Shown here: positions 25,496-63,279 of the stretch, piece after piece
Position numbering within the stretch: the stretch's first letter is position 1
How the letters are laid out: each line of letters begins with the position of its first letter
Origin: Escherichia coli
GTDB lineage: Bacteria > Pseudomonadota > Gammaproteobacteria > Enterobacterales > Enterobacteriaceae
DNA: 64,000 nt
Direction: 5' to 3' (one strand)
NCBI RefSeq assembly: GCF_041886205.1
Contig: NZ_CP169029.1
Made by a program: the position numbers and the translations under genes
Notes under the pieces: model-generated
The model's database searches: none
The model's input: only the letters and a program-made list of their open reading frames with translations
What the model was told of the DNA's origin: nothing

Positions 25496-25571
<76 letters not shown>

Positions 25572-25606
25572 TTGGGTGGTCTGTGCCTTACAGCACTTTC
25601 AAATTT

Positions 25607-25682
<76 letters not shown>

Positions 25683-25718
25683 TTGGGTGGTCTGTGCTTT
25701 GTAGCACTTTTCAAATTT

Positions 25719-25794
<76 letters not shown>

Positions 25795-39876: not shown

Positions 39877-40410
39877 ATGCGCCTGCTCCCTCTCGTTGCC
39901 GCAGCGACAGCTGCATTTCTGGTCGTTGCCTGCAGTTCTCCTACGCCGCCGCGTGGCGTGACAGTAGTGAATAATTTCGACGCTAAACGCTATCTCGGTA
40001 CCTGGTATGAGATTGCCCGTTTTGATCACCGTTTTGAACGTGGACTGGAAAAAGTCACCGCAACATACAGTCTGCGTGATGACGGCGGCCTGAATGTCAT
40101 CAATAAAGGCTATAACCCTGACAGAGAAATGTGGCAGCAGAGTGAAGGGAAAGCGTACTTTACCGGCGCACCAACACGCGCTGCGCTGAAAGTGTCATTC
40201 TTTGGTCCTTTCTATGGCGGTTATAACGTCATTGCACTTGATCGGGAATACCGCCATGCGCTGGTTTGCGGCCCGGACCGCGACTACCTGTGGATACTCT
40301 CCCGCATGCCAACCATTTCTGACGAAGTGAAACAGGAGATGCTGGCAGTCGCGACCCGGGAAGGGTTTGATGTCAGTAAGTTTATTTGGGTACAGCAGCC
40401 CGGTAGTTAG
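39877..40410 (+). CDS. blc: outer-membrane lipocalin Blc
   Basis: 177 aa ORF with lipoprotein signal peptide (LVVAC). Confidence 0.9.
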
Positions 40411-40724
40411 TGAGTGCTGAGTTTCAGACCAATAATCCCCAATACGATTAACGCCAGACTCGCCAGGCGCATCGGGTTAGCGGACTCACCGAGCAGCACA
40501 ATGCCGGTGATAGCCGCGCCGACTGCGCCAATACCCGTCCACACGGCATAAGCCGTCCCTACTGGTAACGATTTCATCGCCCAGGCAAGTAGCGCCATAC
40601 TGACAATCATCGCCGTCACGGTAATAACACTCGGCGTCAAACGACTAAAGCCGTGGGTATATTTCAGGCCAACGGCCCATACCACTTCCAGCAGACCAGC
40701 AATAACTAAGATAATCCAGGACAT
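40407..40724 (-). CDS. gdx: SMR-family guanidinium exporter Gdx (SugE)
   Basis: Track ORF 155 aa trimmed to [14 protein letters not shown] start (105 aa, four TM helices, conserved Glu in TM1). Confidence 0.9.
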
Positions 40725-40742
40725 ATCAGGCTCCGGAGAATT

Positions 40743-40787
40743 GGGGCCGTCCCCGGTGAAAAGACGCGTTTGCAGGTCGTCCTGCAA
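40743..40787 (-). ncRNA. guanidine-II (mini-ykkC) riboswitch in the gdx leader
   Basis: Two hairpins on the minus strand with ACGR tetraloops: uugcagg-ACGA-ccugcaa and gggg-ACGG-cccc, separated by a 15-nt linker, followed by GGAG Shine-Dalgarno and the gdx ATG. Confidence 0.75.
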
Positions 40788-40905
40788 AGCTGATGGTTGA
40801 ACGGATATTTTGCCAGGTGGCAGGGGAATTTCAACTATTACCTTAGTGACTATCGCAGAAAAAACAAACGGCACGACATAGCTGTCGTACCGTTATTGCT
40901 TATTG

Positions 40906-41052
40906 CTATTGCTGCGCTTTCGTTGCTGCGCCAGAAATCGCGTTACCGCCATCAGAAATGTCTTCACCAACGCCACGCGTGGTGTTGCAGGCAGTTAATA
41001 CTGTTGAAAGCACCAGAACAGAAAAGATCGCTGCAATTGTCTTCTTCACCAT
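40906..41052 (-). CDS. ecnB: entericidin B lipoprotein
   Basis: Hand-translated 48 aa [51 protein letters not shown] (not in the ORF track because under its length cutoff). Confidence 0.85.
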
Positions 41053-41162: not shown

Positions 41163-41288
41163 TTAGCTGGCAGCGCGAGAGATGGAGTTGCCGAGATGTT
41201 TGATGTCTTCGCCGAAACCGCGAGCGGTGTTACAGCCCGTGAGCAGCGTGCTGGCAAGCAAAACAAGAACGATAAGGCGTTTCATCAT
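41163..41288 (-). CDS. ecnA: entericidin A lipoprotein
   Basis: Hand-translated 41 aa [44 protein letters not shown]. Confidence 0.85.
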
Positions 41289-54968: not shown

Positions 54969-55044
54969 GCCCGGATAGCTCAGTCGGTAGAGCAGGGGAT
55001 TGAAAATCCCCGTGTCCTTGGTTCGATTCCGAGTCCGGGCACCA
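54969..55044 (+). tRNA. pheU: tRNA-Phe (GAA)
   Basis: 76 nt exact match to E. coli tRNA-Phe (gcccggatagctcagtcggtagagcaggggattgaaaatcccc...cacca); located after yjdC as pheU is in E. coli. Confidence 0.95.
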
Positions 55045-62011: not shown

Positions 62012-63103
62012 ATGCGTTTTCTGCGCCGACCAATATCGCTGCGCCAACGGCTGATATTGACCATCGGGGCCATTTTGTTGGTGTTTGAGCTGATCAGCGT
62101 CTTCTGGCTATGGCATGAAAGTACCGAGCAGATTCAGCTGTTTGAGCAGGCGCTACGCGACAATCGCAACAACGATCGCCACATCATGCGTGAGATCCGC
62201 GAGGCGGTCGCCAGCCTGATTGTCCCCGGCGTCTTTATGGTCAGCCTGACGCTATTTATCTGCTATCAGGCGGTACGCCGCATCACCCGCCCGCTGGCGG
62301 AGCTGCAAAAAGAGCTGGAAGCGCGCACCGCCGACAACTTAACGCCCATTGCCATTCACAGCGCCACCCTCGAAATCGAAGCGGTGGTTTCGGCGTTAAA
62401 CGATCTGGTCAGTCGCCTGACCAGCACGCTGGATAACGAAAGGTTGTTTACCGCTGACGTCGCGCACGAACTGCGAACGCCACTGGCGGGGGTGCGTTTG
62501 CATCTGGAACTGCTGGCGAAAACGCATCACATTGATGTAGCACCGTTAGTGGCACGGCTTGATCAGATGATGGAGAGCGTCTCCCAGCTGCTGCAACTGG
62601 CGCGTGCCGGACAGTCATTTTCTTCCGGTAATTATCAACATGTAAAACTGCTGGAAGATGTCATTCTCCCCTCGTATGACGAACTCAGTACCATGCTCGA
62701 CCAGCGACAGCAAACCCTGCTATTGCCAGAGAGCGCCGCCGACATCACCGTTCAGGGTGATGCAACCCTGCTGCGGATGTTATTGCGAAACCTGGTAGAA
62801 AACGCCCATCGTTACAGCCCGCAAGGCAGCAACATTATGATTAAGCTGCAAGAAGATGACGGAGCGGTCATGGCAGTTGAAGATGAAGGACCAGGTATTG
62901 ATGAGAGTAAATGCGGGGAGTTGAGTAAAGCGTTTGTACGTATGGACAGCCGTTATGGCGGGATTGGTCTGGGGTTAAGTATTGTCAGCCGCATTACACA
63001 GTTGCATCACGGGCAGTTTTTCCTGCAAAACCGGCAAGAGACTTCCGGCACGCGGGCCTGGGTACGGCTGAAGAAAGATCAGTACGTGGCAAACCAGATA
63101 TAA
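62012..63103 (+). CDS. basS: two-component sensor kinase BasS (PmrB)
   Basis: Track ORF (TTG at 62003) trimmed to ATG giving MRFLRRPISLRQ (363 aa); H-box ADVAHELRTPL. Confidence 0.9.
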   Translation: MRFLRRPISLRQRLILTIGAILLVFELISVFWLWHESTEQIQLFEQALRDNRNNDRHIMREIREAVASLIVPGVFMVSLTLFICYQAVRRITRPLAELQKELEARTADNLTPIAIHSATLEIEAVVSALNDLVSRLTSTLDNERLFTADVAHELRTPLAGVRLHLELLAKTHHIDVAPLVARLDQMMESVSQLLQLARAGQSFSSGNYQHVKLLEDVILPSYDELSTMLDQRQQTLLLPESAADITVQGDATLLRMLLRNLVENAHRYSPQGSNIMIKLQEDDGAVMAVEDEGPGIDESKCGELSKAFVRMDSRYGGIGLGLSIVSRITQLHHGQFFLQNRQETSGTRAWVRLKKDQYVANQI

Positions 63104-63279
63104 AGAAAGCTGCTGACCACCAGCACGCTGAACACGGTAGTTAAACTTTCATAAACACGGTTTTTCATTGCACTCTCCTCCGTTAACCTGGAGGAGAGTA
63201 TGCGCGTCAGAGATTAAGTGAACCTTAAGAGTTCAATTGGCCTGATAAGACAGCGTCACATCAGGCCATCCGTTTCAGC

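What the first reader, a model, noticed from the sequence alone, without database searches (positions are those of the whole stretch)
40743..40787. Textbook guanidine-II (mini-ykkC) riboswitch in the gdx (sugE) leader
Seen in sequence: on the minus strand, two hairpins each capped by an ACGR tetraloop (ACGA and ACGG), separated by a 15-nt linker and followed by the Shine-Dalgarno GGAG and the gdx start. Established knowledge: guanidine-II riboswitches are two ACGR-loop hairpins that dimerise on guanidinium binding and control SMR-family Gdx exporters. The element lies inside the N-terminal extension of the naive ORF call (40407..40874), a good illustration of why the longest-ORF start is wrong here.
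Basis: partly seen in the sequence, partly recalled or inferred. Interest (0 to 1): 0.35.

Follow-up and report, generated by a model that had tools for sequence, protein, structure and literature searches.

The report
Known E. coli gdx guanidine-II riboswitch

Summary
The observation and the interpretation both hold. On the minus strand, window 40788-40742 matches Rfam RF01068 (Guanidine-II / mini-ykkC) over the full model at 49.3 bits (gathering score 32; E 9.5e-7 for the whole window). P1 is 8 bp with an ACGA loop. P2 is 4 bp with an ACGG loop. A 14-nt linker separates them, GGAG lies 8 nt after P2, and the ATG follows 6 nt later. The gene is Gdx/SugE (105 aa; NCBIfam equivalog 193 bits). 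The window is E. coli chromosome (ecnB-gdx-blc-ampC). The leader is present in 5421 of 5426 complete E. coli genomes. All 20 enterobacterial gdx loci I fetched hit RF01068, and 53 loci from many phyla show strong compensatory covariation in both stems. The 155-aa ORF is an artefact: its GTG lies in the ecnB terminator, upstream of the mapped gdx transcription start. This very element has a crystal structure (P1, PDB 5NDI), NMR and smFRET studies, and a P2 deletion that gives constitutive gdx expression. Two nuances emerged. Published Term-seq shows Rho-dependent premature termination in this leader, so the output is not purely translational. Folding predicts that the Shine-Dalgarno pairs with the P2 3' strand and loop rather than the linker, but this did not beat shuffled controls. 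Novelty: already known.

The parts
40807..40834 (-). Promoter-like site for gdx: TTGAAA, 16 nt, TG-n-CAAAAT. The implied TSS is near 40799-40800.
   Evidence: Consensus scan (1 found against 1.1 expected, so weak on its own). It agrees with the published TSS, which lies 76 nt upstream of the Term-seq 3' end at K-12 4376876. That places the TSS at K-12 ~4376800, i.e. window ~40799 (PMC7815308; coordinate mapping).
40769..40788 (-). P1 hairpin: 8-bp stem UUUGCAGG/CCUGCAAA with ACGA tetraloop (40780-40777)
   Evidence: Sequence. Rfam alignment with all 8 pairs standard. P1 pair probabilities 0.83-1.0. Six of 8 pairs show compensatory changes across 53 loci.
40755..40768 (-). 14-nt linker CGCGUCUUUUCACC. 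Position 40765 is G here and C in K-12.
   Evidence: The family's allowed linker length of 7-40 nt is from PMC5558903.
40743..40754 (-). P2 hairpin: 4-bp stem GGGG/CCCC with ACGG tetraloop (40750-40747)
   Evidence: Sequence. Rfam alignment (the model's fifth, outer pair is a C/A mismatch). Four of 6 tested pair positions show compensatory changes across loci. P2 is predicted to be only 1-21% populated without ligand.
40722..40742 (-). Expression platform: spacer AAUUCUCC, Shine-Dalgarno GGAG (40734-40731), 6-nt spacer, start codon ATG (40724-40722)
   Evidence: Sequence. The RefSeq CDS starts here. The published dominant Term-seq 3' end maps to 40723.
40407..40724 (-). gdx (sugE) coding sequence, 105 aa plus stop: the regulated guanidinium exporter
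   Evidence: NF008512 SugE equivalog, 193.5 bits against a cut-off of 126, residues 1-104 on profile positions 1-104. The solved Gdx-type SMR structure 6WK5 matches residues 1-103 on 1-103, E 1.5e-32.
40857..40894 (-). ecnB intrinsic terminator (12-bp stem plus T-run). It bounds the gdx unit on the 5' side and contains the GTG (40874) of the spurious 155-aa ORF.
   Evidence: Terminator scan. A published Term-seq 3' end at K-12 4376736 maps to window ~40863.

Best explanation
This is the guanidine-II (mini-ykkC) riboswitch of the E. coli gdx (sugE) mRNA, an ON switch. Transcription starts near window 40799. The 76-nt leader folds into a stable P1 hairpin (ACGA loop) and a marginal 4-bp P2 hairpin (ACGG loop). 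When guanidinium accumulates, one cation binds in each ACGR loop and the two loops dock through C-G pairs (a kissing interaction), which locks P2 in place. That keeps the P2 nucleotides away from the ribosome-binding site 8 nt downstream, so GGAG and AUG become available and the Gdx exporter is made. Without ligand, the ribosome-binding site is sequestered. My folding predicts pairing mainly with the 3' strand and loop of P2; the published cartoons show pairing with the linker. The untranslated leader is then cut short by Rho-dependent termination, with a 3' end at the start codon. Shown here: the anatomy, family membership, conservation, covariation, gene association and the correct start codon. 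Taken from the literature on this same sequence: ligand binding, loop-loop docking, Rho dependence, and constitutive expression after P2 deletion. Inferred: which nucleotides act as the anti-Shine-Dalgarno, and that guanidinium relieves the Rho termination.
For: Identity. RF01068 matches positions 1-48 of 48 at 49.3 bits against a gathering score of 32. Both 8-nt cores GGACGRCC are present. The linker is 14 nt, within the family's 7-40 nt range. The gene downstream is the Gdx/SugE equivalog.

Conservation. The 85-nt leader is present in 5421 of 5426 complete E. coli genomes at 95% identity or more. All 20 of 20 enterobacterial gdx loci hit RF01068 at 38-49 bits directly upstream of the gene. 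Of 79 Gdx-homolog loci from diverse bacteria, 53 have two strict cores within 220 nt upstream.

Covariation. On those 53 loci, 88% of cells are paired against 67% in shuffles. Ten of 14 pairs show double changes. The covariation score is 0.552 against 0.169 (0 of 500 shuffles reach it), and it collapses when partners are slid.

Literature on this element. The E. coli sugE P1 crystal structure is 5NDI, and smFRET shows an in-cis kissing state that depends on guanidinium and Mg2+ (PMC9094411). NMR shows two new G-C pairs on guanidinium binding (PMC9300104). A 20-bp deletion, equivalent to window 40756-40737, removes P2 and gives constitutive gdx expression, and guanidinium supplementation boosts Gdx-dependent Cs+ resistance (PMC13064478). 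A Rho-dependent 3' end lies 76 nt from the TSS, with bicyclomycin (BCM) readthrough, and the rhoR66S mutant raises lacZ fusions more than 2-fold (PMC7815308).

Folding. Without constraints P2 is not in the minimum-energy structure. GGAG pairs with the P2 3' strand and loop at probability 0.62-0.67 and with the linker below 0.1. Forcing the aptamer state costs 1.1-2.8 kcal/mol, depending on the transcript length folded.
Against: Nothing argues against the identity. The mechanistic detail is less secure. The predicted cost of the aptamer state in E. coli (1.3 kcal/mol) is no larger than with shuffled downstream sequence (39 of 100 shuffles are at least as high). Across 19 enterobacterial leaders, only 11 exceed their shuffled mean. 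Even with P1 and P2 enforced, the Shine-Dalgarno is predicted to pair locally with codons 2-4, and the opening energy of the ribosome-binding site drops by only about 0.9 kcal/mol. So thermodynamic modelling neither proves nor locates the anti-SD. In vitro, NMR/SAXS on the 49-mer saw mainly intermolecular dimers rather than a clear intramolecular kiss. The ZX-1 expression data are RNA-seq with n = 1. I could not read the primary validation paper (Sherlock et al. 2017; not held).
Confidence: 0.95

Rival explanations
1. The switch is the same riboswitch and purely translational, with the anti-Shine-Dalgarno in the P1-P2 linker as drawn in published cartoons. Loop-loop docking pulls the linker away from GGAG, and Rho termination is only a passive consequence of poor translation.
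For: This is the model stated for the E. coli element in PMC9300104 and PMC9094411, and for P. aeruginosa in PMC5558903. The K-12 linker contains CUCU, which can form 4 pairs with GGAG (sequence). In several more distant enterobacterial leaders (L012, L016, L017, L018) folding does put the SD region on the linker.
Against: In E. coli the predicted linker-SD pairing probability is below 0.1 for both alleles. The window allele (G at 40765) breaks one of the four possible linker-SD pairs, yet 1121 genomes carry a leader identical to the window's over these 85 nt. The ZX-1 deletion keeps the whole linker and removes P2, yet expression becomes constitutive. That is the opposite of what a linker anti-SD would predict.
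Confidence: 0.3
2. P1 followed by the U-rich linker acts as an intrinsic transcription terminator or attenuator, so the element controls transcription elongation directly.
For: The consensus scan flags P1 (8 bp, 4 G-C pairs) plus CGCGTCTTTT as terminator-like.
Against: The U-run begins 5-6 nt after the stem and is interrupted. The scan found 3 terminator-like sites against 1.1 expected in this 1-kb stretch, so the flag is weak. The dominant in vivo 3' end is at +76 (the start codon), not near +45, and it is bicyclomycin- and Rho-sensitive. P1 is stable with or without ligand, so it could not switch.
Confidence: 0.02
3. The 155-aa ORF (40874..40407) is the real gene and the two hairpins are coincidental structure inside coding sequence.
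For: An uninterrupted GTG-initiated frame exists.
Against: The 50-aa extension has no family match. Its GTG lies in the ecnB terminator stem and upstream of the mapped TSS. All RefSeq records checked start at the ATG. The Gdx-type SMR structure 6WK5 aligns residue 1 to residue 1. Seven of 21 enterobacterial orthologous loci have in-frame stops within 75 nt upstream. The RNA stems covary in a way that coding constraint would not produce.
Confidence: 0.01

Closest known systems
Guanidine-II riboswitch (mini-ykkC, Rfam RF01068), specifically the E. coli K-12 sugE/gdx representative used for PDB 5NDI and for the NMR and smFRET work
   Same: The architecture, both loops (ACGA and ACGG), both stems, the spacing to the SD and start codon, and the regulated gene are all the same. 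The 85-nt leader is 98.8% identical to K-12.
   Different: There is one base difference in the non-conserved linker (window 40765 G, K-12 C). The window's version of the leader occurs unchanged in about 21% of complete E. coli genomes (1121 of 5421).
Plasmid-borne sugE/gdx with its guanidine-II leader, found next to blc on conjugative multidrug-resistance plasmids
   Same: The promoter region, riboswitch and gene travel as one unit. 683 plasmid records match from about window 40835 through the gene. The plasmid copy in L007 hits RF01068 at 47.2 bits with identical P1 and P2 hairpins.
   Different: Identity is only about 77%, which suggests a source other than E. coli, and the linker is one nucleotide shorter. 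The window copy is the chromosomal E. coli locus.
Riboswitches coupled to Rho-dependent termination (PMC7815308 groups the E. coli moaA Moco riboswitch with sugE; the Mg2+ and FMN leaders are recalled from my own knowledge)
   Same: The ligand-free, untranslated leader yields Rho-dependent 3' ends (PMC7815308).
   Different: For gdx, ligand control of the Rho step has not been shown. The aptamer is far smaller (47 nt) and binds two ligands at a loop-loop interface.
Guanidine-I (ykkC) and guanidine-III riboswitches
   Same: They sense the same ligand and regulate the same class of genes (Gdx exporters and guanidine carboxylases).
   Different: Their folds are unrelated: guanidine-I is a large transcriptional aptamer and guanidine-III is a pseudoknot. 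Neither gave a match in the window.

Membership tests
Guanidine-II riboswitch (RF01068) | Score at or above the curated Rfam gathering threshold, over the full model | tested here: met
   49.3 bits against 32, model positions 1-48 of 48, E 9.5e-7 (whole window) and 5.2e-9 (local)
Guanidine-II riboswitch (RF01068) | Two hairpins, each capped by an ACGR tetraloop | tested here: met
   ACGA at 40780-40777 and ACGG at 40750-40747 on the minus strand
Guanidine-II riboswitch (RF01068) | Two conserved G-C pairs closing each tetraloop (16 conserved nucleotides, GGACGRCC twice) | tested here: met
   GGACGACC at 40782-40775 and GGACGGCC at 40752-40745, the only two occurrences in the window. The definition is from PMC5558903.
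Guanidine-II riboswitch (RF01068) | Linker of 7-40 nt between the hairpins | tested here: met
   14 nt (40768-40755)
Guanidine-II riboswitch (RF01068) | Sits in the 5' leader of a guanidine-related gene, with the Shine-Dalgarno close behind P2 | tested here: met
   GGAG lies 8 nt after P2 and the ATG 6 nt further on. The gene is the SugE/Gdx equivalog. The published TSS lies about 11 nt upstream of P1.
Guanidine-II riboswitch (RF01068) | Stems supported by covariation in homologous leaders | tested here: met
   On 53 loci, 10 of 14 pairs show double changes and the covariation score is 0.552 against 0.169 (0 of 500 shuffles). Slid controls give 0.065-0.20. Caveat: loci were selected on the strict cores, so the inner two pairs are invariant by construction.
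Guanidine-II riboswitch (RF01068) | Binds guanidinium, with ligand-dependent loop-loop (kissing) docking | not testable with these tools
   Reported for the E. coli sugE sequence itself: 5NDI and smFRET (PMC9094411) and NMR (PMC9300104). The K-12 allele differs from the window at one linker base.
Guanidine-II riboswitch (RF01068) | Ligand-dependent activation of the downstream gene in vivo | not testable with these tools
   Indirect published support: deleting P2 gives constitutive gdx expression, and guanidinium enhances a Gdx-dependent phenotype (PMC13064478). The primary reporter data (Sherlock 2017) could not be read.
Gdx/SugE subfamily of SMR transporters | Full-length match to the curated SugE equivalog model, and to solved Gdx-type SMR structures rather than EmrE or Qac | tested here: met
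   NF008512 scores 193.5 bits against a cut-off of 126. All Qac, EmrE and Smr models fall far below their cut-offs. 6WK5 gives E 1.5e-32 against EmrE at 2e-10.

The most novel reading that the evidence does not exclude
In the E. coli leader the anti-Shine-Dalgarno may not be the linker, as published schemes draw it. It may instead be the 3' strand and ACGG loop of P2 itself, with the 5' strand GGG plus AC of the loop pairing to G-UCCU at the start codon. On this reading, guanidinium works simply by trapping P2 as a hairpin, and the ligand-free alternative helix also defines the +76 Rho-associated 3' end. Natural P2-deletion alleles (for example strain 167) and the 40765 G/C linker polymorphism would then be expression variants of gdx that affect tolerance to guanidinium, quaternary ammonium compounds and Cs+.
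Probability: 0.3. Interest if true: 0.25.

Novelty: already known. Interest (0 to 1): 0.08.

Why it matters
For discovery it matters little. This exact locus is a published model for the guanidine-II class, and MG1655 already names the gene gdx, 'guanidinium exporter'.

It does have value as a positive control for the scan. A reader without tools recovered a 47-nt riboswitch and the correct start codon from raw sequence.

It is also an annotation lesson. None of the RefSeq records I inspected carries a riboswitch feature here, and a longest-ORF caller would bury the element inside a spurious 155-aa protein.

The only open biology is the exact OFF-state pairing, and whether guanidinium controls the documented Rho-dependent termination.

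Tried and rejected
1. Thermodynamic test of the switch. I compared free ensembles with P1+P2-enforced ensembles for the window, K-12, the ZX-1 deletion and the strain 167 deletion, and for 19 enterobacterial leaders with 100 shuffled tails each. The aptamer state costs 1.1-2.8 kcal/mol in E. coli, but this is not distinguishable from shuffles (39 of 100). Only 11 of 19 leaders exceeded their shuffled mean. The ribosome-binding-site opening energies (8.2 versus 7.3 kcal/mol; ZX-1 6.8; strain 167 9.1) are too close to support a mechanism. I therefore rejected this as evidence for any particular anti-SD.

2. P1 as an intrinsic terminator (flagged). Rejected on geometry and on the published Term-seq and bicyclomycin data.

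3. The octamer count alone as evidence. GGACGRCC is not rare (2 seen, 3.4 expected). Only the paired arrangement and the covariance-model score are significant.

4. Reading three primary papers: Sherlock 2017 (PMC5340285), Higgins 2019 (PMC6560137) and Greener 1993 (PMC413287); also Slipski 2020 (PMC7648145). None is held in the library.

5. Looking for other guanidine riboswitch classes upstream of the 20 Gdx-homolog loci that lack strict cores. I found only two more guanidine-II hits and nothing else at gathering threshold.

Full report
**What is there.** Read on the minus strand, window 40788-40722 is:

UUUGCAGG-ACGA-CCUGCAAA / CGCGUCUUUUCACC / GGGG-ACGG-CCCC / AAUUCUCC / GGAG / CCUGAU / AUG

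- P1 is an 8-bp hairpin (40788-40769) with an ACGA loop.
- P2 is a 4-bp hairpin (40754-40743) with an ACGG loop.
- The linker between them is 14 nt.
- The Shine-Dalgarno GGAG (40734-40731) lies 8 nt after P2.
- The ATG (40724-40722) lies 6 nt after the Shine-Dalgarno.

Their "15-nt linker" simply leaves out the outermost U-A pair of P1.

**Is it more than chance?** An Rfam scan of the whole window returns RF01068 (Guanidine-II, mini-ykkC) at 40742-40788 on the minus strand. The match covers model positions 1-48 of 48 at 49.3 bits, against a gathering score of 32, with E = 9.5e-7. A permissive local scan finds no other family there. The core octamer GGACGRCC is not rare by itself: 2 are seen and about 3.4 expected in the window. 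However, both copies are in this element, 30 nt apart on one strand, and each sits at the centre of a perfect palindrome.

**Where it comes from.** The 751-bp surroundings occur in 5425 of 5426 complete E. coli genomes. The gene order is epmB, efp, ecnA, ecnB, sugE, then convergent blc and ampC. The downstream CDS (40724-40407, 105 aa) is the SugE/Gdx equivalog: NF008512 scores 193.5 bits against a cut-off of 126. It aligns residue 1 to residue 1 with the solved Gdx-type SMR structure 6WK5, E 1.5e-32. MG1655 annotates it as gdx, "guanidinium exporter", at 4376875-4377192.

**The start codon.** The mechanical ORF list does contain a 155-aa GTG ORF at 40407-40874, but it is spurious.

- Its GTG lies inside the 12-bp ecnB terminator hairpin (40894-40867).
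- The 50-aa extension matches no family.
- All four RefSeq records I checked start at the ATG.
- The published gdx transcription start is about 75 nt downstream of that GTG (see "An additional layer" below).
- Seven of 21 enterobacterial orthologous loci have an in-frame stop within 75 nt upstream of the aligned Met.

**Comparative evidence.** A scan of one genome per species with the Gdx protein returned 80 loci.

- All 20 enterobacterial loci tested hit RF01068 at 38-49 bits directly upstream of the gene.
- Among 79 usable loci, from Enterobacterales to Bradyrhizobium, Mesorhizobium, Massilia and others, 53 carry two strict cores within 220 nt upstream. Two more reach the gathering score with variant P1 cores.
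- I made a gap-free alignment of the two hairpins from 52 of these loci plus the window (A1). On it, 88% of cells are paired against 67% in shuffles. Ten of 14 pairs have changes on both sides. The covariation score is 0.552 against 0.169 (0 of 500 shuffles reach it). Sliding the partners by 1-3 columns collapses it to 0.065-0.20.
- Caveat: the loci were chosen on the strict cores, so the two inner pairs of each stem are invariant by construction.

**What is already published on this exact element.**

- The crystal structure 5NDI is the E. coli sugE P1 homodimer with guanidinium. smFRET on the 47-mer aptamer upstream of E. coli sugE shows a kissing state in cis that depends on ligand and Mg2+ (PMC9094411).
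- NMR and SAXS on a 49-mer found two new G-C pairs on guanidinium binding, with the ACGA loop of P1 as the stronger site (PMC9300104).
- The family definition is two ACGR-capped hairpins, two closing G-C pairs each, and a 7-40 nt linker, acting as a translational ON switch (PMC5558903).
- In vivo, a 20-bp deletion upstream of gdx gives constitutive high gdx expression, and guanidinium enhances Gdx-dependent Cs+ resistance (PMC13064478; RNA-seq n = 1). That deletion corresponds to window 40756-40737 and removes P2 plus AAUUCU.

**An additional layer.** Adams et al. (PMC7815308) mapped a dominant Term-seq 3' end at K-12 4376876, 76 nt downstream of the sugE TSS.

- Using the gdx coordinates, the 3' end maps to window 40723, the U of AUG.
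- The TSS maps to about window 40799. That fits the promoter-like TTGAAA-16-TGnCAAAAT site ending at 40807.
- The 3' end has a Rho score of 3.7 and reads through with bicyclomycin.
- Expression of the sugE lacZ fusion rises more than 2-fold in the rhoR66S mutant.

So in E. coli the ligand-free leader is subject to Rho-dependent premature termination. The output is not purely translational. Guanidinium control of this step has not been shown.

**How the switch is thrown.**

- Unconstrained folding does not form P2 (probability 0.01-0.21). Instead GGG and AC of the loop pair with G-UCCU at the start codon, and GGC.CC pairs with GG.GCC across the Shine-Dalgarno.
- GGAG pairs with the P2 3' strand at 0.62-0.67 and with the linker below 0.1, in both the window and K-12 alleles.
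- Enforcing P1+P2 costs 1.1-2.8 kcal/mol, a plausible size for a ligand-driven switch.
- The ZX-1 deletion keeps the linker but removes P2 and de-represses the gene. This fits a P2-strand anti-SD better than the linker anti-SD drawn in the literature.
- The modelling is nevertheless not decisive. The cost is no greater than with shuffled downstream sequence (39 of 100). Only 11 of 19 enterobacterial leaders exceed their shuffled mean. The Shine-Dalgarno is predicted to remain partly paired with codons 2-4 even in the aptamer state.

I therefore commit to the general mechanism with high confidence: guanidinium traps P1-P2 docking, the ribosome-binding site is freed, and translation suppresses Rho termination. 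I assign the specific anti-SD only tentatively.

**Rivals.** An intrinsic terminator formed by P1 plus the U-rich linker is flagged by the scan. It is contradicted by the position of the in vivo 3' end and its Rho dependence, and by P1 being constitutively stable. The long-ORF reading and a chance occurrence are excluded by the evidence above.

**Verdict.** The finding is real and correctly interpreted, and the element is already known in detail. Interest is low. Its value is as a positive control and as an annotation example, because the RefSeq records I inspected carry no riboswitch feature here.

Noticed in passing
window 40765 (minus-strand linker): The window has G where K-12 has C (ACGCGUCUUUU versus ACGCCUCUUUU). 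This is the only difference from K-12 in the 111 nt I aligned. The window's 85-nt leader is exact in 1121 of 5421 E. coli genomes, including O157:H7 and O121 strains; 4300 genomes fall in the 95-99% band. The base lies in the stretch that published cartoons call the anti-SD. I did not check whether every genome with one mismatch differs at the same position.
   Followed up: partly
L083 2534-2547 (E. coli strain 167, NZ_CM132950.1); equivalent to window 40767-40739: A urine isolate carries a natural 29-bp deletion that removes the linker and all of P2, leaving P1 joined to CUCCGGAG-ATG. It resembles the laboratory ZX-1 20-bp deletion reported to make gdx constitutive. About 6 of 5421 genomes cover less than 80% of the leader; I inspected only this one.
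   Followed up: partly
L034 1439-1483 (Collimonas sp. OK307) and L038 1435-1479 (Acerihabitans arboris): Upstream of these gdx homologs are guanidine-II-like double hairpins with a pyrimidine at the fourth loop position. Both loops are ACGC in Collimonas, and the P1 loop is ACGU in Acerihabitans. Both score below the Rfam gathering score (24.2 and 27.4 bits against 32). They could be degenerate copies or tolerated ACGY variants.
   Followed up: partly
window 40769-40788 plus 40759-40768: P1 followed by CGCGTCTTTT is flagged as terminator-like by the consensus scan. Published 3'-end mapping does not support termination there.
   Followed up: yes
window 40723 and ~40511: Published Term-seq and DirectRNA-seq data place a Rho-dependent 3' end at the gdx start codon (K-12 4376876) and a Rho termination region inside the gdx ORF (K-12 4377088, about window 40511). 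The +76 end lies 6 nt past the predicted SD-sequestering helix. That would fit exonuclease trimming back to that helix, but this is speculation.
   Followed up: partly
window 40407-40410: The gdx (minus strand) and blc (plus strand, 39877-40410) coding regions converge and overlap by 4 nt at their stop codons.
   Followed up: no
plasmid collection (hits H10-H32); L007 (Providencia vermicola plasmid p8538-NDM-1): About 683 mostly conjugative plasmids from Escherichia, Salmonella, Klebsiella, Providencia and others carry a sugE about 77% identical, next to a lipocalin (blc) gene. Homology starts at about window 40835, so the promoter region and riboswitch travel with the gene. The L007 copy hits RF01068 at 47.2 bits.
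   Followed up: partly
window 63072-63237 (-): A full-length match to the enterobacterial sRNA family STnc630 (RF02052): 181.8 bits against a gathering score of 55.
   Followed up: no
window 25496-25794 (-) and 54969-55044 (+): Three tandem, identically scoring tRNA-Gly(GCC) genes spaced about 111 nt apart, and a single tRNA-Phe(GAA).
   Followed up: no
window 40857-40894 (-) and 40906-41052, 41163-41288 (-): The small entericidin lipoprotein ORFs ecnB (48 aa) and ecnA (41 aa) lie just upstream of gdx. The strong ecnB terminator (12-bp stem) separates them from the gdx promoter. A published Term-seq 3' end (K-12 4376736) falls in its T-run.
   Followed up: partly
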